DNA of 32,000 nucleotides from Candidatus Kuenenia stuttgartensis (GCF_900232105.1 NZ_LT934425.1:2760001-2792000); one strand, 5' to 3'. Shown: positions 10,105-22,576, counted from the stretch's first letter. The notes: a model not told the origin generated them from the sequence alone. Program-made: numbers and translations.

Positions 10105-10133
10105 TTTTTTTTCCTCCCTTCTGCAAAAAAAAC

Positions 10134-10284
10134 GTAACACTTTAGTCTTTTGAAAAATTCCGATAATAGCGATGTTTGCCGCATAGTGCAGGGACGAAGC
10201 ATTTGCTATAAATTGCCATAAATACGTTCATACCCAAACGGGCAAATGCTTCGCCCCCTACTTTTTAAAAGACTAAAGTGTCAC
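10134..10284. mobile_element. MITE family D (151-bp long form), TIR GTAACACTTTAGTCTTTTGAAAA
   Basis: Termini at 10134- and -10284 (TTTTAAAAGACTAAAGTGTCAC). Internal hairpin GGGACGAAGCATTTGC..GCAAATGCTTCGCCCC. Flanked by an A-rich near-duplicate, AAAAAAAC and AAAAAACC. It lies 30 bp upstream of the kinase start. Confidence 0.75.
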
Positions 10285-10628
10285 AAAAAACCAAAGGGGA
10301 TTTTCAGGTTGATTCCAGTAGATACCGGCGCTTGTCGTTTGCTTATATAATTGATCATCACGAATATCTCCTCCCTTTACTGGTTCAATGCTATCTGTTC
10401 CATAAATTAACATTTTTGAATTGCGCACCTTTCATTAGTTTCTCCTTTGCACTTACGTGATAATAGGCTTTCTACTCAGGTTTCAAAGTCATGTATTACG
10501 GAAAAAAACAAAAAAACCACCGATAGTTTTATGCAAAACATACACGTTATTTGAAGAAGGCAACGGGTGTGTACACGCAGAAGATGCTTTTTTAATATCG
10601 GTAGATAAAGGTATTTGTTTAATAATTA

Positions 10629-10752
10629 GGGTGTATTCCCGATTTTTTGTGATTTCCGCCATGTTTTAATGAAACGTTGCAGTAGTGTTAACCCTGACAG
10701 GGTTGTTTTGCCCCGACTCCATGAACGCTTACAAACAATCGGGAATGCACCC
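10629..10752. mobile_element. MITE family A (124 bp), inverted relative to the 5121-5263 copy
   Basis: GGGTGTATTCCCGATTTTTTGT..ACAAACAATCGGGAATGCACCC. The interior CCGCCATGTTTTAATGAAA..GTAGTGTTAAC(C/G)CTGACAGGGTT matches the reverse complement of the 5121 copy. No clear TSD. Confidence 0.7.
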
Positions 10753-11215
10753 GTCAACATGTGCATTAATAATTATCACGTGGAAAGGGTAGATTTAAAC
10801 TGTTTTAAGGGAAGTGCTGCGTATACTATACTATAAAGCTACATTGTTACTAATTTTTTATTTTGCGGGAATATATCCCGGTTCTTATTTGTCATAAGAT
10901 TATATTTGGCATTTTTACGCCCTTCGTTCCCACGCAGGAGCATATGGGCAAGTCCTGCCAGTCACAAATTTGCGTCTTGTATTTAATTTGGTATCAAATA
11001 AAATTCCACCAGTTCAGGAGTTCTGAATTTATAAAAGGTATTTGTGAATAACAGACTCCCCGTATTTTCTCTTATGTGCTATCCTTATAATCTGTTATGG
11101 AATAATTTGGGAATCTGCGGTTCTCTTATCTCTCTTCAAACCCGGCGTATTTAAGATAAATAATCGGTAATGATTTTTAATATCATCACTTTTTTAATTT
11201 TGCTTATAACAAAAC

Positions 11216-11758
11216 GTGAACCAAAAAGACTCCCTACTTATTCATATAGATGCTCTATACAGATCGGCACTGTATCTCGTCAAAAATGAACATAACGCAT
11301 ATGATCTGGTCCAGGAAGCCTATTTAAAGGCATTCAAATCTCTCCGGAATGGCGAAATAGTTAATAATGAAAGGGCATGGTTGTTTAAAATATTAATGAA
11401 TACCTTCATCAATCAATATAGAAAAAGTAAAACAGAACCTTCTTTGGTTGATTTTGACAGCATTGAGTCCTTTCATAAATCAATAAAAGAAGAGGTATTA
11501 ACGCCCTCAAATACAGAGAATGAGGCAGCATTTGATGAGTTACTTGACTCAGATGTGAAAAAAGCGCTTGAAGAATTACCCGATGATTTTAGACTGGTCG
11601 TCTTACTTTCGATAGTAGAGGGCTTTTCCTACAAGGAGATTTCCAAAATGCTTAACTGCCCAATCGGGACAGTAATGTCCAGGATCTATAGGGGACGAAA
11701 GTTGTTAAAGGAAAAATTGACAGGTTATGCAAAAAAACATGGCTACGAAAGAGAATAA
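11216..11758 (+). CDS. ECF-type RNA polymerase sigma-70 family factor
   Basis: 180 aa with GTG start. Region 2: AYDLVQEAYLKAFKSL..ERAWLFKILMNTFINQYRK. Region 4: LPDDFRLVVLLSIVEGFSYKEISKMLNCPIGTVMSRIYRGRKLLKEKL. The stop is 3 nt before the anti-sigma start. Confidence 0.9.
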   Translation: MNQKDSLLIHIDALYRSALYLVKNEHNAYDLVQEAYLKAFKSLRNGEIVNNERAWLFKILMNTFINQYRKSKTEPSLVDFDSIESFHKSIKEEVLTPSNTENEAAFDELLDSDVKKALEELPDDFRLVVLLSIVEGFSYKEISKMLNCPIGTVMSRIYRGRKLLKEKLTGYAKKHGYERE

Positions 11759-11761
11759 GAA

Positions 11762-12631
11762 ATGAATTGTACCGATGTAAGAAAATATTTTTATGCCTTT
11801 CTCGACAACGAACTCGATGTGGAAAGGAATATCGAGGTTTTGTCGCATATTAATATGTGCCATGCATGCGGCGTGAAAATAGAAAGGGAAAGACTGCTTC
11901 AGGAAAGAGTGAAAGAAACTGTTTGTAAGATAAAAGTCCCTGCATACCTTGAGCAAAAAATTTTTAGGAGTGCAGAAAGCCGTCCTAACTTTTTTGCTCA
12001 ATTTATAAAGAATTTCTCGTTGAGAGGCAGATTCGTATTAGTCTCTGGCATAGCAACCGCAATAGTTCTTATTGCTTGTTTTTTCGTAATACAAAATAAG
12101 CTGAAGAAAGATAATATTTTTTACCTCACGGAGTCAAAGTATCACGACTATATAATGAAGCAACTTGTTCCAGACATACGTTTACAGAATGCCGGAGAAA
12201 TTATAGGACGCCTTCAAAATCGAACCGGCCTAAGTGTAATCCTGCCTGGCATTGAAGAAAATATGCAGATACAGAATGCAAAAGCTATTGTGGATTACTT
12301 TCAAAAACAAACTGGTTTAACGGTAACGCTCCCTTTTATGAAGGGAAATGTACAGTTGGTGGGTGCGTCTTTGACTAATATTAACGGCAAAAATGTACCC
12401 CTGGTTTTTTACATGCTTGATGATACCCCAATTACGTTGGCTGTGGTTTGTAATTCCGACATCACTTTTAGAAAAATGAAAGAGGTCGTAGCTGATAAGA
12501 TGGTGGTATATACAGGTACCGGTTTTTGCGGCTCCTGCCAGATTGTTGGATGGAAAGAGACTGGCGCTCAGTACGTTATGGTATCGATGTTAAATAGTGA
12601 AAAAATGATAAAAGCGCTTACAAAGGTATAA
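11762..12631 (+). CDS. Membrane-spanning anti-sigma factor with an N-terminal zf-HC2 (ZAS) motif
   Basis: 289 aa. MNCTDVRKYFYAFLDNELDVERNIEVLSHINMCHACGVKIE contains H29-x3-C33-x2-C36. A single TM lies at about residues 91-110 (FVLVSGIATAIVLIACFFVI). The C-terminal ~180 aa are extracytoplasmic, with a second CxxC (FCGSC). The position directly after the ECF sigma gene supports the call. Confidence 0.85.
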   Translation: MNCTDVRKYFYAFLDNELDVERNIEVLSHINMCHACGVKIERERLLQERVKETVCKIKVPAYLEQKIFRSAESRPNFFAQFIKNFSLRGRFVLVSGIATAIVLIACFFVIQNKLKKDNIFYLTESKYHDYIMKQLVPDIRLQNAGEIIGRLQNRTGLSVILPGIEENMQIQNAKAIVDYFQKQTGLTVTLPFMKGNVQLVGASLTNINGKNVPLVFYMLDDTPITLAVVCNSDITFRKMKEVVADKMVVYTGTGFCGSCQIVGWKETGAQYVMVSMLNSEKMIKALTKV

Positions 12632-12782
12632 AAACGGACCATGAATGACAAGAAATTTTTAATATTTAAGATGCGGCTCTAATTCTATATCTTTAACCTT
12701 TTTTATTCGATATCGGAGGTATCGGGATTTTAAAATTACTGTTTATTTATATTTTAATTAGTTTGGAAAGAAAGGATGTATC

Positions 12783-13142
12783 ATGATTATAAAAAAGAAG
12801 TCTCTGCTTTCTGTGACACTCGGTGTGGCATTTTTTATTGCATCTGCGTTAGTCACCGTTGTATCTGCTGGGGCCAATCCATTCGCACCCGGCGATGCAA
12901 CCACCTTCAAAACCGATATGGAGAAAAAAACAGAAGGGAAATGTGGTGAGGGTAAGTGCGGTGAAGGAAAATGCGGCAGTGATGAGAAAAAGAAGGAAGG
13001 AAAGTGCGGTGAGGATAAATGCGGCGGCAATGAGAAAAAGAAAGAAGGGAAATGTGGCGGTGACGAGGGGAAAACAGAAGGTAAATGCGGTGAAGGCAAA
13101 TGTGGCGGTGATGAGAAAAAGAAAGAAGGAAAGTGCAGTTAA
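12783..13142 (+). CDS. Sec-exported cysteine-repeat peptide: nine (E/D)GKC(G/S) units, an HvfA/bufferin-like putative metallophore precursor or periplasmic thiolate metal-binding peptide
   Basis: 119 aa. Signal peptide MIIKKKSLLSVTLGVAFFIASALVTVVSA. The repeat region reads TEGKCGEGKCGEGKCGSDEKKKEGKCGEDKCGGNEKKKEGKCGGDEGKTEGKCGEGKCGGDEKKKEGKCS. The repeats use different synonymous codons (GAAGGGAAATGTGGT, GAGGGTAAGTGCGGT, GAAGGAAAATGCGGC..), so they are conserved at protein level. RBS AAAGGA lies 6 nt upstream. A terminator hairpin follows. Confidence 0.8.
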   Translation: MIIKKKSLLSVTLGVAFFIASALVTVVSAGANPFAPGDATTFKTDMEKKTEGKCGEGKCGEGKCGSDEKKKEGKCGEDKCGGNEKKKEGKCGGDEGKTEGKCGEGKCGGDEKKKEGKCS

Positions 13143-13169
13143 TTAAAATAAACCGATGCCGAATAAAGT

Positions 13170-13214
13170 GGGCTTACGTGGAGGAACCACAATTCCTTTG
13201 CGTAAGCCCTTTTT
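13170..13214 (+). terminator. Intrinsic terminator after the repeat-peptide gene
   Basis: GGGCTTACG-tgg(AGGAA ccacaa TTCCT)ttg-CGTAAGCCC followed by TTTTT. It starts 28 nt after the stop codon. Confidence 0.65.
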
Positions 13215-13301
13215 AGGCGTTCCTTCGCTGTAAGCTGATGTCTCGAATGTTTATTACATTTTGATTTACATGGAAAAAGGTATACTTGCGAAGGTTAATC
13301 T

Positions 13302-13925
13302 ATGCGCATTAAAAAACACAATGTAAAATGCTTACTGCGAGGAAAACATAATGTATTTCCTCGCAGTAAGCATGGGTCTGAGAGCATCGGCAGGCGCACA
13401 TTTCTTTCGGGCGCTGCCGGTTTTATTGCCACACTGCTTTTGTCCCCGGTGATAGCAAGGACTGTTAAAAGCCACGCATCTGCTTTGACAGAAGACCCGT
13501 GGCAAACCCTGTCCGTAGTGCAAGACCATCTCTTTCCTTCGGAAGCAGATTCTCCGGGGGCAAAGGAAATCAATGCGATTTCGTATTTGCGCAATATGCT
13601 CGCAGATCTGGTGACGGATACTGATGAGAAGGAATTTATACTGAATGGCGTCGGGTGGTTGAATGAACTGGCGATTGAAAGGCACGAAGCCGTTTTTGCA
13701 GATTTGCCGCAGTTGCAGCAATCAGATTTGCTGCAACAAATTTCAAAAACCACCGCCGGCAGAAATTGGATTTCTAAGCTAATTTCTTATCTGCTGGAAG
13801 CCTTGTTAAGCGATCCTGTGTACGGAGGAAACCCGGACGGCATAGGATGGAAGTGGCTTGAACATCGGCCAGGTTATCCACGGCCGCCGACGAATAAACG
13901 TTATTATGACCTGCTAAAAATATGA
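13302..13925 (+). CDS. Gluconate 2-dehydrogenase subunit-3-like small subunit with a twin-arginine (Tat) signal
   Basis: 207 aa. Tat motif IGRRTFLSGAAGFIATLLLSPVIA. Family-typical WQTLSVVQDHLFPSEADSPGAKEINAISYLRNML and SDPVYGGNPDGIGWKWLEH. The stop overlaps the GMC start (ATGA at 13922-13925). Confidence 0.85.
   Translation: MRIKKHNVKCLLRGKHNVFPRSKHGSESIGRRTFLSGAAGFIATLLLSPVIARTVKSHASALTEDPWQTLSVVQDHLFPSEADSPGAKEINAISYLRNMLADLVTDTDEKEFILNGVGWLNELAIERHEAVFADLPQLQQSDLLQQISKTTAGRNWISKLISYLLEALLSDPVYGGNPDGIGWKWLEHRPGYPRPPTNKRYYDLLKI
13328..13373. repeat. Perfect 18-bp inverted repeat with a 10-nt spacer, inside codons 9-24 of the Tat small-subunit gene
   Basis: ATGCTTACTGCGAGGAAA (13328-13345), acataatgta, TTTCCTCGCAGTAAGCAT (13356-13373). 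Read directly from the sequence. Confidence 0.8.
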
Positions 13926-15607
13926 ATACAGATTTTGACGTGTGTATAGTAGGAAGCGGCGCCGGCGCCGGCCCCGTAGCGCTCACCCTTGCAGAATCGG
14001 GTTATTCGGTGGTTGTCCTTGAAAAAGGCCCCTGGTTTAAGGAAGAGGATTTTTATAAGGATGAGCTTGCCAGTCGCAGACGCGATGTTTACACGCCGAA
14101 TCTGCAGGATGAACAGCATGTAATTGAAGAACCGGATGGACTGGGTGGATGGGACTGCGAGCCAACCTCTGTTTCCGGATGGAATTTCTGGAGGGGCTGT
14201 TGTGTTGGCGGTTCCTCAAATTTTATGAGCGGATTTTTTTTCCGGATGAAACCCGAAGACTTTCGCTTGCTTTCAACCTTCGGCCCGATAGATGGCGCTA
14301 ATCTTATAGATTGGCCCATCTCCTACGAAGACCTTGAACCGTATTATACGAAGGTAGAATCGATTGTCGGCGTATCGGGCAGTGTTGTGCCGCATCCACT
14401 TCTTGAACCGCGTTCTACCGGCAATTTCCCTTACCCGCCTACGCTGGAACACCCCATTTCCGGATTGTTTGATACTGCCTGCCGCAAACTCGGATTACAC
14501 CCATTACCGACTCCGCGTGCAATTCTATCCAACAGCGCCATGAAACGGCAAAGCTGCGGCTATTCGGGGTGGTGTGGCAGTTATGGCTGTTCAACCGGCG
14601 CTAAAGGCAGCTCCCGGGCAGCATTACTAAATCCTGCCCTTGAAACCGGCCGTTGTGAAATCAGGCCGCATGCCAAGGTATATAAACTTACGACCAATGC
14701 TCAGGGCAAAGTGATTGCGGCGGAGTACTATGACAGGGATGGCAAGCAACAACGAGTCGATGCAAAAATATTTGTTGTCGCATGCCAGTCAATCGAAACC
14801 GCGCGTTTATTGCTGTGTTCTACAGGAACGCGTCATAAAAACGGTCTGGCAAACAATACCGGGCAGGTAGGCAAAAATCTTATTTTTTCAGCGGGTGGCA
14901 CGGGAGGGGGAGACCTTATCTATAAAAAACTTGGCAGGACAATTACAGAGTCATTGAAATTCCAGGGACTGTTCCTCAACCGCAATTTGCAGGACTGGTA
15001 TTTTATCGATAATCCAGTATGGGGAAGGATGCAAAAGGGTGGAACCATTGATTTTCTGCTGGAACACCCTGGCCCAATCGCAAAGGCGATAGACCTGAAA
15101 TGGGACGATCATGGCAACCTGATATGGGGGAAACCGTTAAAACAGGCATTAAAAAAACACTTTACCGAAATGCGCGAGTTTAAATATGAAATCTTTTGCG
15201 ATTGGCTGCCTACGGATAACTGCTTTGTCTCCCTTGATACGAAAGTGAAAGACAAGTGGGGAACACCGGTAGCCAGGGTAAGGGTTGGTTATCACCCGCA
15301 CGACATCAAGATAGGTAACTATCTCGCGAAAAAGGCAACATATATTATGAGGACAATGGGCGTAAGAAACGTCTATTCTAACATAAGCGGTTCGCCGCCG
15401 CCTAACCTGGCGGCAGGCGGCTGCCGGTTTGGAAATGACCCGAAAAATTCCGTGCTTGACCCTGATTGCCGTGCCCATGATGTTGAAAATCTTTTCGTTA
15501 CCGATGGGAGTTTTATGCCAACGGGGGGAAGCATTCCTTATACATGGACAATTTATGCAAACGCCTTCCGTGTTGCAGATAAGATTGTGAAACAACTTGG
15601 TGGATGA
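13922..15607 (+). CDS. GMC-family FAD-dependent oxidoreductase (catalytic subunit, no signal peptide of its own)
   Basis: 561 aa. The Rossmann motif is DVCIVGSGAGAGPVALTLAESGYSVVVLEKG. The C-terminal GMC_oxred_C-type region reads HDVENLFVTDGSFMPTGGSIPYTWTIYANAFRVADKI. It is translationally coupled to the Tat small subunit. Confidence 0.9.
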   Translation: MNTDFDVCIVGSGAGAGPVALTLAESGYSVVVLEKGPWFKEEDFYKDELASRRRDVYTPNLQDEQHVIEEPDGLGGWDCEPTSVSGWNFWRGCCVGGSSNFMSGFFFRMKPEDFRLLSTFGPIDGANLIDWPISYEDLEPYYTKVESIVGVSGSVVPHPLLEPRSTGNFPYPPTLEHPISGLFDTACRKLGLHPLPTPRAILSNSAMKRQSCGYSGWCGSYGCSTGAKGSSRAALLNPALETGRCEIRPHAKVYKLTTNAQGKVIAAEYYDRDGKQQRVDAKIFVVACQSIETARLLLCSTGTRHKNGLANNTGQVGKNLIFSAGGTGGGDLIYKKLGRTITESLKFQGLFLNRNLQDWYFIDNPVWGRMQKGGTIDFLLEHPGPIAKAIDLKWDDHGNLIWGKPLKQALKKHFTEMREFKYEIFCDWLPTDNCFVSLDTKVKDKWGTPVARVRVGYHPHDIKIGNYLAKKATYIMRTMGVRNVYSNISGSPPPNLAAGGCRFGNDPKNSVLDPDCRAHDVENLFVTDGSFMPTGGSIPYTWTIYANAFRVADKIVKQLGG

Positions 15608-15636
15608 TTGAACGTTTTTATGATGAAGGAGGTGGT

Positions 15637-17661
15637 ATGCCCAGAGATATACCGGTAGGGAACGGTTCAATGTTGGTTACATTTGACTCCGAGTATCAGA
15701 TACGTGATATTTATTATCCGTATGTTGGCAGTGAGAATCATACGATTGGCCATCCGTGCAGAATGGGTATTTGGGTGGATGGACATTATAGCTGGGTGGA
15801 CAGCGAGTGGCAAAAAACGCTGACGTATAAAACGGATACACTAGTTACTGACGTAAAGGCAAAAAATGACCGGCTGAAAATAGAACTTCAGATGTACGAC
15901 ACGGTCGACTTCCATCTGAACATATTTGTAAAGGAAATCATCATCAGGAATCTTGATGGGAAAGATCGTGAGATCAGGCTGTTTTTTTATCATGATTTTC
16001 ATATTTATGGCAATGAGATCGGTGACACGGCGTATTATGACCCGGATACCATGTCAATTATTCATTATAAATCCCAGCGTTATTTTTTAGTTAATTGTTG
16101 CGACCCATCCAAGTGCGGAGTAGACCATTTTGCCACCGGCGAGAAGGAGATGCATGGTGCGGAAGGTACGTGGAGAGATGCGGAGGACGGTTTTTTGAGC
16201 GGCAATCCCATTGCTCAGGGGTCAGTGGACTCTACAATCGGCATTAACCTCCATATAAAGGCACACGGGGAAAATTTAACCCATTACTGGATTGCTGCAG
16301 GCAGGAAACATAGCGAGGTGGTAGCGCTCAACAAGAGTATCTGGGAAAAAACACCGGAAGAACTCATTCGGCGCACGGAGAACTATTGGAAATTATGGGT
16401 AAATAAGGAATCACTGCAATTTTACGATCTTCCCGAAAGTCTGGTGTCTTTTTTTAAGCGGAGCTTGTTGATAATGAGGACACAGATTGATAACAATGGC
16501 GCGATTATTGCGGCAAATGATTCTGATATTACCAAGTTCGGGAAAGACACCTATTCCTACATGTGGCCTCGCGATGGTGCCCTCGTTGCATACGCGCTTA
16601 TACAATCTGGATACAGTGATGTATCAAAACGTTTTTTTCAATTTTGCGCGGATGTTATTTCTCCGGAAGGCTATTTACTCCACAAATATAATCCTGATCA
16701 ATCTCTTGCCAGTTCATGGCATCCGTGGTTCAAAGACCGGAGAAAGAGCCTTCCGATACAGGAAGATGGCATTGCGCAGGTAATTTGGGCATTATGGCAT
16801 CATTACGATAAATTCAGAGATATTGAGTTTGTGAAGCCCCTGTACCGGCATTTAATCATGAATGCCGCAGAATTTATGGTGAAATTCAGAGATGAAGAGA
16901 CGGGATTGCCTCTTGCCTCATACGATTTATGGGAAGAGCGATATGGGGTGCATACCTTTACCGTATCGGCAGTGATCGCGGGACTAAGGGCGGCTGGAAA
17001 TTTTGCCTGCGCCTTCGGGGAAGAGGAATTCGGCACAAAATATTATGAAATAGCGGATAAAATCAAAGACGCCCTTATTGCGAATTTTTATAATAAAACG
17101 GAAGGGCGTTTTGCGAGGATGGGAACAAGGAACGCAAAAGGGTATGATTTGGATATGACTGTAGATGCAAGTCTTTACGGGCTTATTGCATTTGAGACAC
17201 TTGCCCCTGGCCAACCGATGGCTGTATCAACAATGGAGGCTGTTAAGAAGAGTCTCAGGGTAAACACTTCTGTCGGCGGCATAGCGCGATATTCCAATGA
17301 TTATTATCAGCGAGTAAATACCGGCAGAGAAGGCATTCCTGGGAATCCGTGGTTTATCTGTACTCTATGGATGACGGAATACGATATCATGCGGGCCGGA
17401 AATCTTGATGAATTGAATGAGGCACTGTCAGGTCTGGAATGGGTTGTTGGCAAGGCGTTGAAATCCGGAGTCCTGGCAGAACAGGTAAATCCGTTTACCG
17501 ACGAACCTCTCTCTGTATCCCCCTTAACATGGAGTCATGCGACATTTGTTACTGCCTTACTAAAATACATGGAGAAGAAAGAACGGCTGTTAACCTGTAA
17601 GTCATGCGGCCATTCTCAGTATTATATGCACCGTCAGGTACAAAAACCCTGTAATGTATAA
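15637..17661 (+). CDS. Glycoside hydrolase family 15 protein (glucoamylase / glucodextranase / trehalase type)
   Basis: The ORF is open from 15604, but ATG 15637 follows GAAGGAGGTGG. The N-terminus is MPRDIPVGNGSMLVTFDSEYQIRDIYYPYVG. The catalytic-domain motifs are YSYMWPRDGALVAYAL and DLWEERYGVHTFTVSAVIAGL, plus LTWSHATFV. It has an unusual Cys-containing tail, LTCKSCGHSQYYMHRQVQKPCNV. Confidence 0.9.
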   Translation: MPRDIPVGNGSMLVTFDSEYQIRDIYYPYVGSENHTIGHPCRMGIWVDGHYSWVDSEWQKTLTYKTDTLVTDVKAKNDRLKIELQMYDTVDFHLNIFVKEIIIRNLDGKDREIRLFFYHDFHIYGNEIGDTAYYDPDTMSIIHYKSQRYFLVNCCDPSKCGVDHFATGEKEMHGAEGTWRDAEDGFLSGNPIAQGSVDSTIGINLHIKAHGENLTHYWIAAGRKHSEVVALNKSIWEKTPEELIRRTENYWKLWVNKESLQFYDLPESLVSFFKRSLLIMRTQIDNNGAIIAANDSDITKFGKDTYSYMWPRDGALVAYALIQSGYSDVSKRFFQFCADVISPEGYLLHKYNPDQSLASSWHPWFKDRRKSLPIQEDGIAQVIWALWHHYDKFRDIEFVKPLYRHLIMNAAEFMVKFRDEETGLPLASYDLWEERYGVHTFTVSAVIAGLRAAGNFACAFGEEEFGTKYYEIADKIKDALIANFYNKTEGRFARMGTRNAKGYDLDMTVDASLYGLIAFETLAPGQPMAVSTMEAVKKSLRVNTSVGGIARYSNDYYQRVNTGREGIPGNPWFICTLWMTEYDIMRAGNLDELNEALSGLEWVVGKALKSGVLAEQVNPFTDEPLSVSPLTWSHATFVTALLKYMEKKERLLTCKSCGHSQYYMHRQVQKPCNV

Positions 17662-17959: not shown

Positions 17960-19343
17960 CATAAGCGCTAACTTGTTTTAGGTATGCTCGAAGTATTTTG
18001 ATATCTGTGTTTTTCGGATTCTTGTATTTTCTGCTAAAGAACAAGCAATGTCATTCCAGCACTTAAGAACTTCCTGTAATGATAACGCTGGTTCTATAGC
18101 CCGTTTTACTTGATTAAGCATAAAAGCAAATTCACGCCATTTGCTTTTAGTCTTCTTGCTTGACAATGAAGTATCCCCAGGGGGAAAAAGACGTAGCAAA
18201 ATCTATTAGTTTTTCTGTCAAAAGAGCAACGAATAGTTTGCCATAAAGCCAAGCTTTTGAGCTATCATCATCGTATTTAGGTAAGTGTCCAAATTGTGCT
18301 ATTTGTTTAAATCTTTTAAAGACCAGTTCAATTTGCCATCGAACTCGATACCATTCTAAGATATCAAAAGCGGTAAATTGATTTTCAGGAAACGTTGTGA
18401 ATACTATTACGTACTTGGCATAAATAAGGGTCTCCGGTTTTAGTTCAATGCCCTTTTTGCTTGCATGTCTTTTAAGTTTTTTATGAGCTATTTTAATGGC
18501 TTCTTCTGTTTTGCGTATTATACAAAGACGACCTTTGACATATTCAGTATTATCAACGTTTGGAATAAAAACGTTCCATGATTTTATAGCAAGGGGTCTT
18601 TTTAAATATTGGATTTCTTTCAATAAAGGAAAGGGTTTCTTTTCTTCGCCGAATATCCGTAGAGATTGCGAATTAACTCTAACGCTAAGATAAGCGCCTT
18701 TCCTTGTTGCATGATGAATTCCTTGGCCAGTACAGTAACCTCTGTCAGCTATAATATAATCATCTTTTTTCATCGGAAACTGCCGAAAAGATTCTCCTGT
18801 GCCTTCTCCTTCAGTTCCCGTAAGTTTAAAGAAATCGCAAGATAATGAAGGAACCTCAATACTATAATGAATGCGCCAAAGACTTCCTGTTTTCCCAGGT
18901 TCCTTTACTGTTGTTGCATCAAATAAGCGAAGATGAAAATTATTCCGTTTATTAATTTGGAGGCCACGCTCACGGAATAAAGATAAACATAATTTATATA
19001 GCCATTCTTTGCTCTTTTTTAATCGCTTTAATAAGGCAACATCGGATAAATCTGCTAAGTTAGCACGCTTGGCTCGAACTACTGTTTCACGCAATGAATA
19101 GCCACATCCTAAATGAATTAATAATGTTCGAAGAAGCTTTTCTTCAGATTTATCCTTGCGCAAGCCTTTTAAAGCATTTGTATCAACGGCTAAACTTTTC
19201 CAATCGTTTGGGAAGAAAGTTCTTAGAAGATCCCAATCTTCTCTCATCATGGCTTTATCCTCCTATAGAGTGATTAGCGGGATAATTAACATAAAAATAC
19301 CATGATGAATAAAATTTGTCAATAAAACAAGTTAGCGCTTATG
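17960..19343 (-). mobile_element. IS4-family insertion sequence (1384 bp) with 20-bp perfect terminal inverted repeats and an 11-bp target duplication
   Basis: IRs are CATAAGCGCTAACTTGTTTT (17960-17979) and AAAACAAGTTAGCGCTTATG (19324-19343). The direct repeat GGGCAAGGGGG occurs at 17949-17959 and 19344-19354. Confidence 0.9.
18147..19250 (-). CDS. IS4-family DDE transposase, with the C-terminus possibly frameshifted
   Basis: 367 aa. The IS4 signature Y-x2-R-x3-E-x6-K is present as YRVRWQIELVFKRFK, and ADRGY is a DDE region motif. The remaining ~60 codons up to the IR are open in another frame (ORF 17978-18199). Confidence 0.85.
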   Translation of the reverse strand: MMREDWDLLRTFFPNDWKSLAVDTNALKGLRKDKSEEKLLRTLLIHLGCGYSLRETVVRAKRANLADLSDVALLKRLKKSKEWLYKLCLSLFRERGLQINKRNNFHLRLFDATTVKEPGKTGSLWRIHYSIEVPSLSCDFFKLTGTEGEGTGESFRQFPMKKDDYIIADRGYCTGQGIHHATRKGAYLSVRVNSQSLRIFGEEKKPFPLLKEIQYLKRPLAIKSWNVFIPNVDNTEYVKGRLCIIRKTEEAIKIAHKKLKRHASKKGIELKPETLIYAKYVIVFTTFPENQFTAFDILEWYRVRWQIELVFKRFKQIAQFGHLPKYDDDSSKAWLYGKLFVALLTEKLIDFATSFSPWGYFIVKQED

Positions 19344-19552: not shown

Positions 19553-20230
19553 ATGAAATATACAAAATTTTTCATTATCGCCGCGATTGTTGGCTTGTTC
19601 GTCGTGTTCTATATGCTGGGCTTCAATAAGTATCTTTCATTGGAAGCCTTGCAGACAAACAGAGAGGCGTTGAATACCCTTTACCACGAGCATCGGGTAG
19701 CCTTTACGGGCGCATTTATGTTGATTTATATCATTTCAGCCGCCATTTCCTTGCCAGGAGCGACCATTCTTACATTAACAGGGGGGTTCATTTTCGGCCC
19801 CCTTCCTGGTTCTGGTATTGTAATTGTATCCGCAACAATTGGCGCTTCTTTGGCGTTTCTCGTTGCCCGGTTTATCTTAAGAAATACCCTGGAAAAAAAA
19901 TATGAACGTAATCTGAAAAAATTTAACGAAGGTATTGCAAAAAATGCCTGGAGCTATCTCCTGTTTTTAAGGCTGGTTCCGCCTTTCCCCTTTTTCCTGA
20001 TTAATATCGTCATGGGACTCACCCGCGTACCATTACGGACATTTGCCTTGGTAAGTTTCATCGGCATGTATCCCGGCACTTTTGTTTATACCCTGGCAGG
20101 CGGTCAGCTTGCAACCATCCATTCTGTAAAGGATATCGCCTCTCCCCGGTTGATAGGCGCTTTCACCCTCCTGGGGTGCTTTGCTTTAATACCAGGTATT
20201 TACAAAAAGTTAAAGGGAGCAAAAAAATGA
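19553..20230 (+). CDS. TVP38/TMEM64 (DedA/SNARE-associated) family membrane protein
   Basis: 225 aa and multi-TM. The family motifs are ISLPGATILTLTGGFIFGPLPG and LRLVPPFPFFLINIVMGLTRVPLRTF. The RBS AGGAG is upstream. The stop overlaps the next start (ATGA, 20227-20230). Confidence 0.85.
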   Translation: MKYTKFFIIAAIVGLFVVFYMLGFNKYLSLEALQTNREALNTLYHEHRVAFTGAFMLIYIISAAISLPGATILTLTGGFIFGPLPGSGIVIVSATIGASLAFLVARFILRNTLEKKYERNLKKFNEGIAKNAWSYLLFLRLVPPFPFFLINIVMGLTRVPLRTFALVSFIGMYPGTFVYTLAGGQLATIHSVKDIASPRLIGAFTLLGCFALIPGIYKKLKGAKK

Positions 20231-21645
20231 GATATGATTATCACATTATTGTTATCGGCGCAGGGAGCGGTGGATTGGTCGTTGCCTCCGGAGCGGCAAG
20301 CCTGGGCGCCAGAGTAGCATTAATCGAAGCGGAAAAAATGGGAGGCGATTGCCTGAATGCCGGTTGTGTACCCAGTAAGACATTTTTAAAGAGCGCCCAT
20401 ATAGCCAAGGCAATTCGGGATGCATCAATGTACGGCTTAACTGCAGATTTGAAGAAGGTGGATATTACCACAGTCATGGACAGGGTTAACAAGGTAATCC
20501 GTGAGATAGAACCACACGATTCCAGAGAGCGTTATGAAGGGCTTGGAGTAGATGTTATCTTAGGCTTCGGTGAGCTTCAGGATAGACACACGGTAAAAAT
20601 CGGGAATGAAACAATAACGGGCAAATATATTGTCATTGCCACGGGTTCCGAACCAGCCGTCCCGCCAATCCACGGTTTAAATGAAGTCAATTATCAAACA
20701 AATCGTACCATTTTTCATCTAAAAGAACTTCCAGGACATTTAATCGTATTAGGCAGCGGGCCTATCGGTATTGAACTAGGTCAGGGATTTCGCCATCTGG
20801 GTTCTCAGGTAACGATCATTAACCGCAGTCCGGGCTTATTCAAAAAAGATGACCCCGAAGTAGGGCCTCTTATGGAGAAACAACTGAAAGATGACGGCAT
20901 AGAGCTTCTTTTGGGGATTGTATACCGGGAGGTCAGGCAGGATAGCGATGTAATATCTGTCGAAATAGAACATGAAGGCAAGGGGCGTATTATTACCGGG
21001 GATCAGCTACTGGTAGCTACCGGACGATTACCGGCAACGAAGAATCTGGGACTTGATAAGGTTGGGGTCAGAGTAGACGAAAAAGGATATATCGTCACTG
21101 ACAAAAAACAGAAGACCTCCGTAAAAAATATCTATGCCTGCGGAGATGTAACAGGTCATTATCAGTTCACTCACATGGCCGGTTATCAGGCTGGGATTAT
21201 CATTCGCAATATAATATTCAAACTGTGCGCTAAAGTAGATTATTCAGCAGTTCCATGGACTACCTATACAAAACCGGAGGTGGCCCATGTGGGATATACA
21301 GAACCCATGGCAAGGAAGACCGGTACATATAAAAGTTCGCTGAAGGTAGACCTGTGTGCGATAGACAGGGCAAAGGCAGAAGATGACCGTGTAGGTTTTT
21401 TAAAGCTGAACCTGGGCAAAAAAGGGCGTATCATTGGAGCGACGCTTGTCGGTGAAAAGGCAGGGGAAATGATCCCAGCAATAACAATCGCCATTAAGCA
21501 GAAACTTACCGCCGGCATTTTCATGAATATGATATTCTCATATCCTACAGAATCGGAAATTCTCAAATCTGCCTCCCTGGAGGCAGCGAAACAGTCATTG
21601 AAACCCTGGATGAAGAAGGTGATTCGGGCGGTGTTGTTACGCTAA
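20227..21645 (+). CDS. Pyridine nucleotide-disulfide oxidoreductase, dihydrolipoyl dehydrogenase / mercuric-reductase-like (class I flavoprotein)
   Basis: The ORF track starts at 20176, but ATG 20227 gives MRYDYHIIVIGAGSGGLV (FAD GxGxxG). The redox-active disulfide motif is GGDCLNAGCVPSK. The NAD site is LIVLGSGPIGIELGQ. The dimerisation domain is ..FSYPTESEILK. There is no C-terminal Cys-Cys pair and no NmerA domain, so it is not a canonical MerA. Confidence 0.85.
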   Translation: MRYDYHIIVIGAGSGGLVVASGAASLGARVALIEAEKMGGDCLNAGCVPSKTFLKSAHIAKAIRDASMYGLTADLKKVDITTVMDRVNKVIREIEPHDSRERYEGLGVDVILGFGELQDRHTVKIGNETITGKYIVIATGSEPAVPPIHGLNEVNYQTNRTIFHLKELPGHLIVLGSGPIGIELGQGFRHLGSQVTIINRSPGLFKKDDPEVGPLMEKQLKDDGIELLLGIVYREVRQDSDVISVEIEHEGKGRIITGDQLLVATGRLPATKNLGLDKVGVRVDEKGYIVTDKKQKTSVKNIYACGDVTGHYQFTHMAGYQAGIIIRNIIFKLCAKVDYSAVPWTTYTKPEVAHVGYTEPMARKTGTYKSSLKVDLCAIDRAKAEDDRVGFLKLNLGKKGRIIGATLVGEKAGEMIPAITIAIKQKLTAGIFMNMIFSYPTESEILKSASLEAAKQSLKPWMKKVIRAVLLR

Positions 21646-21652
21646 CAATTTT

Positions 21653-21677
21653 AAAAATCCTGGCGGGTGGATTTTTT
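21653..21677 (+). terminator. Possible weak intrinsic terminator after the oxidoreductase gene
   Basis: AAAAATCC-tggcgggt-GGATTTTT followed by T. The stem is A/U-rich, so stability is doubtful. Confidence 0.3.
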
Positions 21678-21832
21678 ACTTTATGGGAATAAATTATGGT
21701 TTTTATTTGTCATTAATGTCATAGAAAGACAGTAATACCTGTCTTTAGGCACAATGAAGTTGTTTCTGCCCGGGGGGTGTTAGATCATTTTGATTGTATC
21801 TTATCCGAAGGGATTTTTTATAGGAGAGCAAC

Positions 21833-22252
21833 ATGTTTAAAAACATTGCGTTATCTTTATGCTTTATAATGGCCAGTGGATATGGATTTTCGTACAACAC
21901 GGTAAAAGCCCAAACACCTACCCCTACGTTAGTGCCTACACCGACACTGAAAGGTAGTGCTTCCGGTACAGTAACAGCTAAAAAATCCGGCAAACCAATT
22001 AAACGTGCAAAAGTTTCTTTGAAAAGCAAGGAACTGAATTTTAAAGACAAAACCACCACTGATAACGACGGTAAATATGTATTTTCAGATTTAAGCGCTG
22101 GCAATTATACCCTGAAGGCGAAGAAGCACGGCTTTAAGAATGCAAAAAAGAAATTTGAACTTGCAGAAGGTGAAAATGAGGTGGCCGACATTCAATTGAA
22201 AAAAGAAACGAGCGATGACGGCAATGGTGACGATGGCGATGGTGGATACTAA
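21833..22252 (+). CDS. Small secreted carboxypeptidase-regulatory-like (CarboxypepD_reg) domain protein with an acidic Gly/Asp tail
   Basis: 139 aa. Signal-like N-terminus MFKNIALSLCFIMASGYG. A TP-rich linker follows. GTVTAKKSGKPIKRAKVSLKS..TTTDNDGKYVFSDLSAGNYTLKAKKHGFK is a typical Cna-B/CarboxypepD_reg beta-sandwich. The tail is SDDGNGDDGDGGY. Confidence 0.7.
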   Translation: MFKNIALSLCFIMASGYGFSYNTVKAQTPTPTLVPTPTLKGSASGTVTAKKSGKPIKRAKVSLKSKELNFKDKTTTDNDGKYVFSDLSAGNYTLKAKKHGFKNAKKKFELAEGENEVADIQLKKETSDDGNGDDGDGGY

Positions 22253-22474: not shown

Positions 22475-22576
22475 TAATCATATAGAAGGCACCTCCGAGC
22501 GCACTCTTCATGGTAAAATGGAGGATACCGTGAAAGGCGATTGTTAAATAATAACAAAGTAAGGAGGGAGCGAGCA

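What the first reader, a model, noticed from the sequence alone, without database searches (positions are those of the whole stretch)
11216..13214. EGKCG-repeat exported peptide under an ECF sigma / zinc-finger anti-sigma pair, with no MbnB(DUF692)/MbnC(DUF2063)-type maturase anywhere in the window
Seen in sequence: ORF 12783-13142 encodes a Sec signal peptide followed by a Lys/Glu-rich tract. In that tract (E/D)GKC(G/S) occurs nine times, in three blocks separated by DEKKK/NEKKK linkers. These hold all nine Cys of the protein. Synonymous codons differ between units, so selection acts on the peptide. The antisense PSPHLPS ORF is just its mirror image. The gene has its own RBS and a strong terminator hairpin (13170-13214). 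It follows, in the same orientation, an ECF sigma gene and a ZAS-type anti-sigma gene. Established knowledge, from memory and not searched: signal-peptide-bearing EGKCG-repeat precursors define the HvfA / bufferin-like class of RiPP copper-binding metallophores. Their Cys are converted to oxazolone-thioamide or thiooxazole by a DUF692 multinuclear non-heme-iron oxidase plus a DUF2063 partner encoded next to the precursor. Sigma/anti-sigma genes are often nearby. Inference: none of the ORFs of 60 aa or more in these 32 kb looks like DUF692 or DUF2063. The peptide is therefore one of three things: (a) an orphan precursor matured in trans, (b) an unmodified metallothionein-like periplasmic thiolate buffer, or (c) the substrate of a different, undescribed maturation route. 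This is the most likely novel system in the window.
Basis: partly seen in the sequence, partly recalled or inferred. Interest (0 to 1): 0.85.

Follow-up and report, generated by a model that had tools for sequence, protein, structure and literature searches.

The report
Anammox cysteine-repeat stress peptide without maturase
A small exported protein built from Glu-Gly-Lys-Cys-Gly repeats in the anaerobic ammonium-oxidising bacterium Kuenenia belongs to a known family of copper-binding peptides. No gene for the oxygen-dependent enzyme that normally modifies them lies near it in any sequence examined, and it instead travels with a flavoprotein dehydrogenase under a stress sigma factor, so it could show whether such peptides work without that modification.

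Summary
ORF 12783-13142 encodes a signal peptide followed by nine KC(G/S) units. It passes NCBIfam's HvfA-family domain model (51.2 bits against a cutoff of 19.5). No DUF692 (MNIO), DUF2063 or DoxX gene occurs in the window or in 441 kb of related anammox DNA.

The host is Candidatus Kuenenia. Orphan EGKCG genes are not new: 18 of 80 surveyed loci lacked an adjacent MNIO, and the literature reports stand-alone precursors.

Three points are new.
1. The sigma/anti-sigma pair is anammox-specific. Its autoregulatory promoter (GGGAATA-N16-TTTGTC) is conserved in 30 distinct sequences.
2. The peptide forms a conserved unit, peptide-hairpin-TAT small subunit-GMC flavoprotein. This unit occurs in at least five anammox-type lineages and three genomic contexts.
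3. Where the unit sits away from the sigma operon, a sigma-type promoter match precedes it: strong in L145-147, weak in L144. In Kuenenia it follows the anti-sigma gene with no terminator between them.

Best reading: a sigma-controlled periplasmic thiol-rich buffer for metals or oxidants, probably not MNIO-modified.

Whether Kuenenia carries an MNIO elsewhere could not be tested. This is a new variant of a known kind.

The parts
10854..10899 (+). Autoregulatory ECF promoter of the sigma operon. The sequence is TTTTTTATTTTGCGGGAATATATCCCGGTTCTTATTTGTCATAAGA, with core GGAAT-N18-GTC at 10868-10895.
   Evidence: The motif lies upstream of the orthologous sigma gene in 30 distinct anammox sequences. 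Its PWM score is 60.2 bits. Only two sites in the window score >= 8 bits, the next best position scores -9.4, and shuffles reach at most -2.7.
11216..11758 (+). ECF sigma factor (180 aa). The nearest curated model is the SigH/SigR-like TIGR02947, matched below its cutoff.
   Evidence: Sigma70_r2 and Sigma70_r4_2 domains; TIGR02947 scores 172 bits against a cutoff of 251. It is 78.5% identical to the Scalinduaceae orthologue.
11762..12631 (+). Membrane-anchored ZAS anti-sigma factor (289 aa). It has an N-terminal C-x25-H-x3-C-x2-C motif, one TM helix, and an extracytoplasmic domain with an invariant CxxC.
   Evidence: zf-HC2 domain. C3, H29, C33, C36, C256 and C259 are invariant in 13 sequences. 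The family has 92 full-length members; every one that carries a source name is from an anammox or Planctomycetota bin.
12632..12782 (+). Intergenic region before the peptide gene. It has no terminator and no convincing ECF promoter. It contains the RBS AAGGA at 12772-12776 and a conserved palindrome CGATA-N7-TATCG at 12708-12724.
   Evidence: No terminator was found. The best PWM score in the region is -34. It is about 80% conserved against L005 and L011, and its last ~45 nt align with L145 and L144.
12783..13142 (+). HvfA-family EGKCG-repeat precursor-like exported peptide (119 aa). The signal peptide is 12783-12869, the NPF motif starts at 12876, and the Cys-repeat tract is 12933-13139.
   Evidence: NF050137 scores 51.2 bits against a cutoff of 19.5.
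13170..13214 (+). Stem-loop with a T-run after the peptide gene. It is an intrinsic terminator or attenuator.
   Evidence: 17-bp stem followed by TTTTT; z = -4.5. An equivalent strong hairpin of unrelated sequence follows the peptide gene in L145, L144, L011 and L148.
13302..13925 (+). Gluconate_2-dh3-type small subunit with a twin-arginine signal (GRRTFL).
   Evidence: PF13618, E = 1e-19. It always follows the peptide gene in anammox-type loci.
13922..15607 (+). GMC-family FAD oxidoreductase, the large subunit.
   Evidence: GMC_oxred_N and GMC_oxred_C domains. Anammox-type relatives are 76-96% identical. The nearest outsiders are Gammaproteobacteria at 66-69% identity.
15604..17661 (+). GH15 glycoside hydrolase. 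It follows the GMC gene in the K. stuttgartiensis clade and in L148, but not in L011, L144 or L145.
   Evidence: PF00723; contexts.
19553..21645 (+). VTT/DedA membrane protein plus MerA/RclA-like flavoprotein disulfide reductase (type B). This pair replaces the ancestral type-A pair that directly follows the anti-sigma gene in other anammox lineages.
   Evidence: Pfam and NCBIfam hits. Type B is 34-38% identical to type A. A type-A fragment is retained in L011.
21672..21717 (+). Second ECF promoter of the same type (core 21686-21713), upstream of ORF 21833-22252.
   Evidence: PWM score 46.6 bits. It is conserved in L001 and L002.

Best explanation
The gene encodes an anammox branch of the HvfA / Buf_EGKCG (captophorin Lys-Cys type) family of Sec-exported Cys-repeat peptides. 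It is not part of an MNIO-DUF2063-DoxX cluster.

**Gene unit.** It is the first gene of a conserved unit: peptide, strong stem-loop, TAT-signal small subunit, GMC flavoprotein.

**Regulation.** This unit belongs to the regulon of an anammox-specific ECF sigma factor. A membrane-anchored zinc-finger (ZAS) anti-sigma with a second, extracytoplasmic CxxC holds that sigma in check. The same regulon carries a DedA/VTT protein and a MerA/RclA-like disulfide reductase. In relatives it also carries a CopZ/MerP-like HMA protein, with thioredoxin, DsbD and AhpD-like genes as neighbours.

**Proposed expression in Kuenenia (inferred).** A thiol-reactive signal such as a soft metal or an oxidant inactivates the anti-sigma. 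The sigma then fires its own promoter at 10868. Transcription runs through sigma and anti-sigma into the peptide gene, because there is no terminator in the 151-nt gap. Most transcripts stop at the hairpin at 13170-13209, giving an excess of peptide over the downstream enzyme genes.

**Proposed function (inferred).** The peptide is exported by Sec. Its nine closely spaced Cys, kept reduced by the envelope thiol-reductant machinery, buffer Cu(I), Hg or Cd, or reactive oxidants, in the periplasm.

**Modification.** I think it most likely works without MNIO-type thiooxazole modification.

**What is shown.** Family membership, the absence of a local maturase, the conserved gene unit, the promoter motif and its positions.

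**What is inferred.** The inducing signal, read-through, export, metal binding and the unmodified state.
For: **Family.** NF050137 scores 51.2 bits against a cutoff of 19.5. Five of seven further anammox-type peptides also pass the cutoff.

**Host.** Candidatus Kuenenia.

**No maturase genes.** No MNIO, DUF2063 or DoxX was found in the window or in 441 kb of anammox-type loci, even at E <= 10. By contrast, 62 of 80 family loci, all of them Pseudomonadota, have an MNIO at a median distance of 17 bp.

**Conserved unit.** Peptide, small subunit and GMC gene occur together in three contexts:
- directly after the anti-sigma gene: window, L001-4, L011 and L148 (L005 keeps sigma, anti-sigma and the peptide, but its contig ends 386 nt after the peptide gene);
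- in a housekeeping context: L144;
- in a third context: L145-147.

**Hairpin.** A strong hairpin follows the peptide gene in all five lineages.

**Promoter.**
- GGGAATA-N16-TTTGTC lies upstream of the sigma gene in 30 distinct sequences.
- The window has only two sites.
- A 33.7-bit site lies 159 nt upstream of the peptide gene in L145-147.
- The top-scoring site of L144 (7.5 bits) lies 141 nt upstream of its peptide gene.
- 1.33 Mb of Pseudomonadota loci contain no site of 15 bits or more.
- No terminator lies between the anti-sigma and peptide genes.

**Regulon character.** It includes a MerA/RclA-like reductase and an AhpD-like protein, and in L009 an HMA CopZ/MerP-like gene behind the same promoter.

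**Hints against MNIO processing.**
- MNIOs use O2 (PMC13097082), whereas anammox bacteria are anaerobes (my own knowledge).
- All anammox peptives keep the NPF motif but lack the SGY motif that follows it. That motif is present in 45 of 46 MNIO-linked NPF peptides and in only 4 of 9 untruncated MNIO-less ones (Fisher p = 2e-4).

**Precedent.** Bufferin operons are controlled by the ECF sigma SigF with NrsF and respond to copper (PMC11626156).
Against: - The rest of the Kuenenia genome could not be searched, so a maturase acting in trans is not excluded.
- The role of the SGY region in enzyme recognition is not established. Single Ala changes before the core of FonA were tolerated. The SGY correlation is also not corrected for phylogeny.
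- The EGKCG units remain fully compatible with the known MNIO substrate rules.
- No expression or proteomic evidence was found.
- The peptide gene is dispensable. It is absent from the closely related L092-L099 loci and deleted in L091.
- AlphaFold gives no fold (pLDDT 43), so metal binding rests on composition and family analogy only.
- The L144 promoter match is weak (7.5 bits).
Confidence: 0.5

Rival explanations
1. This is a conventional split locus. The peptide is a genuine RiPP precursor whose Cys are converted to 5-thiooxazoles by an MNIO-PME1 (DUF692-DUF2063) pair encoded elsewhere in the Kuenenia genome. That pair would act when traces of O2 are present.
For: - The peptide passes the family HMM.
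- Its units obey the tested substrate rules: small residue after Cys, Lys before it, and tandem repeats.
- It keeps the invariant NPF motif.
- Stand-alone precursors are common in organisms that do have MNIOs.
- Some MNIO enzymes may have more than one substrate.
Against: - No MNIO or DUF2063 was found in any of about 441 kb of anammox-type DNA held here.
- Of the best 80 of 336 family loci in GTDB genomes, 79 are Pseudomonadota and one is the Kuenenia-like L011.
- No paper links anammox bacteria with DUF692.
- MNIOs need O2 and the host is an anaerobe.
- The SGY motif is lost in all anammox versions.
- The constant neighbour is a GMC flavoprotein, not an MNIO.
Confidence: 0.25
2. The co-conserved periplasmic GMC flavoprotein, with its TAT small subunit, acts on the peptide. 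It could be an O2-independent maturase that oxidises the Cys units, or a redox partner that keeps the peptide or its bound metal reduced using sugar-derived electrons. In that case the peptide would take the place of the missing cytochrome c third subunit.
For: - The peptide, hairpin, small-subunit and GMC genes are kept together in at least five lineages and three genomic contexts. They were also deleted together in L091.
- A precursor followed by a hairpin and then enzyme genes is the usual RiPP operon layout (my own knowledge).
- No cytochrome c subunit gene accompanies the pair here, although one lies beside it in L143.
- Periplasmic redox enzymes recur next to EGKCG genes. L088 has an Oxidored_molyb gene, and PMC12452194 reports the same.
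Against: - GMC orthologues that are 66-69% identical in Gammaproteobacteria have no such peptide next to them. This argues that the enzyme has an independent substrate, probably a sugar. A GH15 hydrolase follows it in two lineages.
- No GMC enzyme is known to modify Cys in peptides (my own knowledge).
- None of 79 Pseudomonadota EGKCG loci has this pair adjacent.
Confidence: 0.12
3. The peptide is matured by another anaerobic route encoded elsewhere, such as a radical SAM/SPASM enzyme of the kind that processes Cys-rich repeat peptides.
For: - The L148 orthologue weakly resembles the Cys-every-fifth CefA model (24.4 bits against a cutoff of 30).
- An Anammoxibacter locus has a radical SAM/SPASM-methyltransferase gene two genes after the orthologous anti-sigma gene.
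Against: - No radical SAM gene is in the window or next to any of the peptide genes.
- The window peptide does not match CefA at E <= 1.
- The Anammoxibacter locus has no peptide gene.
Confidence: 0.05
4. This is a decaying relic of horizontal transfer with no present function.
For: - The repeat number varies between strains (76, 98, 108, 114 and 119 aa).
- The CSTR1 copy is truncated.
- Some units have lost Cys in L005 and L011.
- The gene is absent from close relatives.
Against: - The reading frame, signal peptide, NPF motif, RBS and downstream hairpin are kept in lineages whose GMC proteins are only 76-80% identical to the window's.
- An ECF promoter is retained upstream of the gene in L145-147.
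- All length variants are in frame.
Confidence: 0.05

Closest known systems
HvfA (oxazolin), FonA (fontiphorin), NgoA (gonophorin): EGKCG-repeat 'captophorin' precursors of MNIO-PME1 clusters (PMC11252979, PMC13097082)
   Same: Sec-type signal peptide, a conserved NPF motif after it, tandem EGKCG units, and Lys/Glu-rich linkers. It passes NCBIfam NF050137.
   Different: There is no adjacent MNIO, DUF2063 or DoxX gene. It fails the HvfA equivalog model (42.6 bits against 95). It lacks the SGY motif. The host is an anaerobic planctomycete rather than a member of Pseudomonadota. Its constant neighbour is a TAT small subunit plus GMC flavoprotein.
Stand-alone Buf_EGKCG precursors, and sigma / ZAS anti-sigma / peptide / DoxX loci, in Pseudomonadota (PMC12452194; L084, L020, L043, L088 here)
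   Same: An EGKCG peptide without a local MNIO, next to an ECF sigma and a zf-HC2 anti-sigma.
   Different: Those sigma factors form their own group. They are 35-58% identical to each other (L043 is the outlier at 30-36%) and 22-24% to the anammox sigma. Their anti-sigmas are small (76-93 aa) and lack an extracytoplasmic domain. DoxX is present and the SGY motif is retained. The association in anammox bacteria therefore arose independently.
Bufferins Buf1/Buf2 of Caulobacter under SigF-NrsF (PMC11626156)
   Same: An exported Cys peptide metallophore that belongs to the regulon of an ECF sigma responding to metal stress.
   Different: The precursor families differ (DUF2282 and 6/12-Cys). The anti-sigma there is NrsF. 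The operon bufABCD carries its own MNIO, and modification has been shown experimentally.
SigR-RsrA / SigH-RshA thiol-stress ZAS systems of Actinobacteria
   Same: The best curated sigma model is TIGR02947. The anti-sigma N-terminus matches the RsrA model and carries C-x25-HxxxCxxC. The promoter GGAAT-N18-GTC is nearly the SigR consensus GGAAT-N18-GTT, which I cite from memory.
   Different: Both models are matched below cutoff (172 against 251 bits, and 36.7 against 62.5 bits). The anti-sigma is membrane-anchored, with a ~170-aa extracytoplasmic domain that carries a second invariant CxxC. The family is restricted to anammox lineages.
Metallothioneins and copper storage proteins (functional analogy only)
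   Same: Dense Cys content that could bind soft metals as thiolate clusters. PMC12452194 draws the same comparison for EGKCG proteins.
   Different: There is no sequence or fold relationship. AlphaFold predicts disorder here.
Gluconate 2-dehydrogenase / glycoside 3-dehydrogenase type complexes (GMC FAD subunit plus a TAT 'hitch-hiker' small subunit plus cytochrome c)
   Same: PF13618 small subunit with a twin-arginine signal, overlapping a GMC large subunit gene.
   Different: There is no cytochrome c subunit gene, and a Cys-repeat peptide gene always lies upstream in the anammox-type loci.

Membership tests
HvfA family / Buf_EGKCG (oxazolin, captophorin Lys-Cys group) precursor | Match to the curated repeat-domain model NF050137 (KCGExKCG_twice) above its cutoff | tested here: met
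   51.2 bits against a cutoff of 19.5, E = 7e-14, four matched stretches.
HvfA family / Buf_EGKCG (oxazolin, captophorin Lys-Cys group) precursor | Equivalog-level match to HvfA itself (NF050188) | tested here: not met
   42.6 bits against a cutoff of 95. It is a family member, not an HvfA orthologue.
HvfA family / Buf_EGKCG (oxazolin, captophorin Lys-Cys group) precursor | N-terminal Sec signal peptide followed by the conserved NPF...SGY region | tested here: inconclusive
   The signal peptide is judged by inspection and by alignment with 64 homologues. N32, P33 and F34 are invariant. The nearly invariant G-Y is replaced by F-K. No signal-peptide predictor was available.
HvfA family / Buf_EGKCG (oxazolin, captophorin Lys-Cys group) precursor | MNIO (DUF692, PF05114) gene next to the precursor | tested here: not met
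   None in the window or in any anammox-type locus. It is present in 62 of 80 reference loci at a median distance of 17 bp.
HvfA family / Buf_EGKCG (oxazolin, captophorin Lys-Cys group) precursor | DUF2063/PME1 partner and DoxX genes in the cluster | tested here: not met
   No hits even at E <= 10. The seeds were verified with Pfam.
HvfA family / Buf_EGKCG (oxazolin, captophorin Lys-Cys group) precursor | MNIO/DUF2063 anywhere in the same genome (maturation in trans) | not testable with these tools
   Only +/-10 kb around a named protein can be fetched. Literature searches found nothing.
HvfA family / Buf_EGKCG (oxazolin, captophorin Lys-Cys group) precursor | Cys converted to 5-thiooxazole (-4 Da each), and copper binding | not testable with these tools
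   This needs mass spectrometry and metal analysis of the native peptide.
ECF sigma / ZAS anti-sigma pair (SigR-RsrA type) | Sigma with regions 2 and 4 only, and a co-transcribed anti-sigma carrying HxxxCxxC | tested here: met
   Pfam domains. There is a 3-nt gap between the two genes. C3, H29, C33 and C36 are invariant.
ECF sigma / ZAS anti-sigma pair (SigR-RsrA type) | Equivalog match to SigH/SigR (TIGR02947) and RsrA (TIGR03988) | tested here: not met
   172 against 251 bits and 36.7 against 62.5 bits. The anti-sigma is membrane-bound with an extra domain.
ECF sigma / ZAS anti-sigma pair (SigR-RsrA type) | Autoregulatory ECF-type promoter upstream of the operon | tested here: met
   GGAAT-N18-GTC with an upstream T-tract in 30 distinct orthologous sequences. 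The window site at 10868 scores 60 bits. Activity was not tested.
GMC oxidoreductase / Gluconate_2-dh3 periplasmic dehydrogenase | GMC N and C domains, a PF13618 small subunit with a TAT motif, and a cytochrome c third subunit | tested here: inconclusive
   The domains and the RRTFL motif are present. No cytochrome c subunit gene is adjacent.

The most novel reading that the evidence does not exclude
Anammox bacteria use EGKCG-repeat peptides without any MNIO. The peptides would then be functional either as plain thiolate buffers or after O2-independent processing or redox cycling by the co-conserved TAT-exported GMC flavoprotein. That would be a new, anaerobic partner system for captophorin-like metallophores, wired into a lineage-specific ZAS/ECF stress circuit.
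Probability: 0.12. Interest if true: 0.85.

Novelty: new variant of a known kind. Interest (0 to 1): 0.55.

Why it matters
EGKCG peptides are now understood as substrates of O2-dependent multinuclear iron enzymes, and their copper binding is attributed to the resulting thiooxazoles.

A lineage of obligate anaerobes keeps these peptides for long evolutionary periods, with no MNIO gene near them and with a different constant neighbour. This is a natural test of whether the modification is needed for function. It is also a place to look for an oxygen-independent alternative.

For anammox biology, the work defines a lineage-specific ECF sigma circuit with a very clean promoter motif. It also identifies part of the regulon: a DedA/VTT protein, a MerA/RclA-like reductase, an HMA protein, the peptide with its GMC unit, and an S-layer-like protein. 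This gives concrete targets for studying metal and oxidant stress, which limits anammox reactors.

Tried and rejected
1. **Whole-genome search for MNIO in Kuenenia.** No tool gives a whole genome. Literature and supplement searches for Kuenenia or anammox together with DUF692, MNIO or RiPP found nothing usable.
2. **ECF promoter directly upstream of the peptide gene in the window.** None was found; the best PWM score is -34. At most a degenerate relic is present (GAAAT-N18-GGC here; GAAAC-N19-GTCAT in L005 and L011).
3. **First hypothesis: a recent Kuenenia-only insertion from Gammaproteobacteria.** Searches suggested this. I revised it when the same peptide-small subunit-GMC unit turned up in other contexts and more distant lineages.
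4. **GMC as a general neighbour of EGKCG genes.** It is not. None of 79 Pseudomonadota loci has the pair adjacent.
5. **Shared alternative maturase next to lone EGKCG genes.** Neighbours of the Colwellia, Thalassotalea and Endozoicomonas genes are housekeeping genes, and none is shared with Kuenenia.
6. **Structure prediction.** pLDDT 43 with no secondary structure. I therefore ran no fold search.
7. **Rfam scan of 10700-13400.** Only chance-level hits.
8. **Expression evidence.** The CSTR1 proteomics supplement has no entries for the sigma, the anti-sigma or their neighbours.
9. **Relation of the sigma to those beside EGKCG genes in Pseudomonadota.** They are unrelated ECF groups.

Full report
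**Observation**

The ORF at 12783-13142 (+) is real. It encodes 119 aa. A typical Sec-type N-terminus (KKK, a ~20-residue hydrophobic core, VSA|G) is followed by NPFAPGDATTFKTDMEKKT. After that comes a Gly/Lys/Glu/Cys tract in which all nine Cys sit in KC(G/S) units.

Eight units are EGKC(G/S) and one is EDKCG. The units are arranged 3+2+1+2+1 with four linkers, not in three blocks.

Synonymous codons vary between units, with 79% mean nucleotide identity. An AAGGA RBS lies 6 nt before the ATG. A 17-bp stem with a T-run at 13170-13214 follows the stop codon.

The antisense PSPHLPS ORF is a mirror artefact. It also appears opposite homologous genes in other phyla.

The two upstream genes are an ECF sigma (Sigma70_r2/r4_2) and a zf-HC2 anti-sigma.

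**Source organism and family**

The window comes from Candidatus Kuenenia, an anammox planctomycete. The sigma protein is identical to K. stuttgartiensis records. The region is syntenic with CP049055.1 at 3.87 Mb.

The peptide passes NCBIfam's HvfA-family domain model NF050137 (51.2 bits against 19.5). It does not pass the HvfA equivalog model (42.6 against 95). A 90%-identical Kuenenia protein is already named 'HvfA family ... RiPP metallophore' by UniRef. Family membership is therefore not a discovery.

The literature describes this family under several names: Buf_EGKCG, oxazolins, and the Lys-Cys group of 'captophorins'. These are Sec-exported precursors whose Cys are converted by an O2-using MNIO (DUF692) with a DUF2063/PME1 partner, usually with DoxX. 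Almost all known members are in Pseudomonadota.

**No maturase nearby, and how unusual that is**

Pfam scans of all window ORFs of 100 aa or more found no PF05114, PF09836 or DoxX.

I built HMMs from Pfam-verified seeds and scanned six-frame translations. Nothing was found in the window or in 441 kb of anammox-type loci, even at E <= 10.

As a control, I scanned GTDB genomes with a peptide alignment, which gave 336 loci. Of the best 80, 79 are Pseudomonadota and one is a Kuenenia-like planctomycete. Of these 80, 62 have an MNIO at a median distance of 17 bp from the peptide gene, and 18 do not. About six of the 18 are cut by a contig end, and about twelve are truly stand-alone. This agrees with PMC12452194, which reports stand-alone precursors.

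Several Pseudomonadota loci have the layout ECF sigma / small zf-HC2 anti-sigma / peptide / DoxX without MNIO: L084, L020, L043 and L088. Others have sigma / anti-sigma / peptide / MNIO / DUF2063: L036 and L042. So neither 'orphan' status nor 'next to a sigma/ZAS pair' is new in itself. Those sigmas are, however, a different ECF group, 22-30% identical to the anammox sigma.

**The sigma circuit**

The anti-sigma family has only 92 members. All are full-length, and every member that carries a source name comes from an anammox or Planctomycetota bin: Kuenenia, Brocadiaceae, Scalinduaceae, Anammoxibacter.

It has the complete ZAS motif (C3, H29, C33, C36), one TM segment, and an extracytoplasmic domain with an invariant CxxC (C256, C259).

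Upstream of the sigma gene, 30 distinct orthologous sequences share TTTTyTATTTTryGGGAATA-N16-TTTGTCwT, that is GGAAT-N18-GTC. From memory, this is nearly the SigR/SigH consensus GGAAT-N18-GTT.

A PWM built from these sites finds only two sites scoring 8 bits or more in the 32-kb window. One is at 10868 (60 bits, 348 nt before the sigma start). The other is at 21686 (46.6 bits, before ORF 21833-22252). The next best position in the window scores -9.4, shuffles reach at most -2.7, and 1.33 Mb of Pseudomonadota loci contain none at 15 bits or more.

In other anammox lineages the operon continues directly into a VTT/DedA gene and a MerA/RclA-like disulfide reductase. That VTT gene starts within about 25 nt of the anti-sigma stop and often overlaps it. 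Thioredoxin, DsbD, AhpC and AhpD-like genes are neighbours. In L009 the same promoter also precedes a CopZ/MerP-like HMA gene. This is the profile of a thiol, metal or oxidant stress regulon.

**The peptide's real neighbourhood**

In Kuenenia the ancestral VTT(A)-reductase(A) pair is replaced by this gene order: peptide, TAT small subunit (PF13618), GMC flavoprotein, (GH15, IS), VTT(B), reductase(B). The B pair is only 34-38% identical to the A pair.

L011 retains a fragment of VTT(A) right after the anti-sigma gene. L091 has lost the peptide CDS but keeps its terminator and scraps of the small-subunit and GH15 genes. On an anti-sigma tree the peptide is present in the K. stuttgartiensis clade and in L005 and L011, but absent from their close relatives L092-L099. 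It is therefore an accessory gene.

The GMC protein's nearest relatives outside the group are Gammaproteobacteria (Thiogranum, Thiohalobacter) at 66-69% identity. In those genomes the small subunit-GMC pair has no such peptide beside it.

The 76-80% identical GMC genes of other low-GC, anammox-type contigs are different. Each is preceded by a related signal-peptide/NPF/Cys-repeat gene:
- L148 again sits after an anti-sigma gene. Its units have drifted to GDKCG and DDKCG.
- L144 sits in a housekeeping context.
- L145-147 sit in a third context.

In all five lineages a strong stem-loop of unrelated sequence separates the peptide gene from the small-subunit gene (z = -3.4 to -4.9).

In L145-147 the only PWM hit in the locus (33.7 bits) lies 159 nt upstream of the peptide ATG. 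In L144 the top-scoring site of the locus (7.5 bits, core GGGAATA-N16-TTGTC) lies 141 nt upstream.

In the window the peptide gene has no such promoter (best score -34), and there is no terminator in the 151-nt gap after the anti-sigma gene. ECF control there would be by read-through from the promoter at 10868.

That the L144 and L145-148 organisms are anammox relatives is inferred from GC content, GMC identity and the promoter motif. It is not shown.

**Modified or not?**

This cannot be settled here.

Arguments for trans-maturation:
- The units fit the tested FonBC substrate rules.
- The invariant NPF motif is retained.

Arguments against:
- No MNIO was found in any anammox DNA held here.
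- The enzyme requires O2 and the host is an anaerobe (my own knowledge).
- The motif that follows NPF is lost. Among peptides with NPF, 45 of 46 MNIO-linked ones have G-Y a few residues later. Only 4 of 9 untruncated MNIO-less ones do, and none of the anammox peptides do (Fisher p = 2e-4, not corrected for phylogeny). Whether this region is the recognition sequence is unknown, and single Ala changes before the FonA core were tolerated.

AlphaFold gives no confident fold (pLDDT 43). Rfam finds nothing. A CSTR1 proteomics supplement does not list these proteins.

**Mechanism proposed**

The gene layout and the motif positions are shown. Every step below is inferred.

1. Thiol-reactive stress releases the sigma from the ZAS anti-sigma.
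2. The sigma drives its own promoter, and transcription continues into the peptide gene.
3. The hairpin terminates most transcripts, so the peptide is made in excess over the GMC enzyme.
4. The Sec-exported, Cys-dense, disordered peptide buffers soft metals or oxidants in the periplasm. It acts alongside the DedA/reductase, HMA and thioredoxin/DsbD functions of the regulon.

I give this about 0.5. Trans-maturation by an unlinked MNIO gets about 0.25. A direct functional link with the GMC flavoprotein, as maturase or redox partner, gets about 0.12. The main point against that last reading is the existence of 66-69% identical orthologues that lack the peptide.

**Verdict**

This is a known family in a new setting: a new phylum, an anaerobic host, a lineage-specific ECF/ZAS regulon with a sharply defined promoter, and a new conserved neighbour in place of MNIO-DUF2063-DoxX. 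I rate it a new variant of a known kind, with interest 0.55.

The single most decisive missing step is an HMM search of complete Kuenenia genomes for DUF692 and DUF2063. The second is mass spectrometry of the native peptide.

Noticed in passing
window 21672-21717 and ORF 21833-22252: A second copy of the anammox ECF promoter (46.6 bits) lies upstream of a 139-aa CarboxypepD_reg-fold protein. That protein partly matches the Kustd1514 S-layer glycoprotein model. The site is conserved in L001 and L002, so this gene is probably another regulon member.
   Followed up: partly
window 19553-21645 compared with L093:1712-3856, L009 and L007: The VTT/DedA plus MerA/RclA-like reductase pair exists in two types. 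Type A directly follows the anti-sigma gene from Scalindua to Kuenenia relatives and is 75-90% identical across them. Type B, found in K. stuttgartiensis-type loci, is only 34-38% identical to A. This looks like displacement by a foreign equivalent. L011 keeps a fragment of type A at 9665-9856.
   Followed up: partly
window 18147-19250 (-) and 22541-23593 (+): Two insertion sequences lie inside the stress-gene neighbourhood: a DDE_Tnp_1 transposase and an IS110-family transposase. The first is absent from the syntenic L002 locus. The second separates ORF 21833-22252 from the DsbD gene at 24444.
   Followed up: no
window 11762-12631 (alignment A5 columns 156-184): Kuenenia-type anti-sigma factors carry a 29-residue insertion that duplicates the 'QxQTGLxVTLP' segment. 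It is absent from the Scalindua-type proteins (268 aa). The extracytoplasmic CxxC (C256, C259) and W264 are invariant.
   Followed up: no
window 12933-13139; L001:10001-10231; L002:10001-10345: The repeat number differs between Kuenenia strains (76, 98, 108, 114 and 119 aa), and all variants are in frame. In strain CSTR1 the gene ends early at 76 aa, and the region before the terminator carries extra sequence.
   Followed up: partly
window 12708-12724: The palindrome CGATA-N7-TATCG in the peptide gene's 5' region keeps its arms in L005 while the centre varies. It could be a small RNA hairpin or a protein-binding site.
   Followed up: no
L018, L035, L037, L038, L071 (peptide at about 10001-10450): A subclass of lone EGKCG genes occurs in Colwellia, Thalassotalea and Endozoicomonas. 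They lack the SGY motif. In three of the loci (L018, L035, L071) they sit downstream of the same six-gene housekeeping block, and L037/L038 share only one neighbouring gene with them. No MNIO lies within 10 kb.
   Followed up: partly
L084:8896-11075, L088:776-3841, L020, L043: A Pseudomonadota architecture: ECF sigma, small zf-HC2 anti-sigma, EGKCG peptide and DoxX, without MNIO or DUF2063. L088 adds a TAT Oxidored_molyb gene. These sigmas form their own related group, mostly 35-58% identical to each other, with L043 the most distant at 30-36%.
   Followed up: partly
L008:2651-5224: In an Anammoxibacter contig the orthologous sigma/anti-sigma pair is followed by DUF547 and an 857-aa radical SAM/SPASM-methyltransferase fusion. 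There is no Cys-repeat peptide gene.
   Followed up: no
L011:15196-15461: A short stretch resembling part of the anti-sigma (15246-15461) lies downstream of reductase(B) and just before a DUF547 gene. A weak ECF-type site (24 bits) lies at 15196.
   Followed up: no
window 10896-11215: The sigma operon promoter lies about 320 nt upstream of the sigma start codon, leaving a long leader with no recognised RNA family. In L009 and L007 small genes (a response regulator, and ORFs of 88 and 133 aa) occupy the corresponding space.
   Followed up: no
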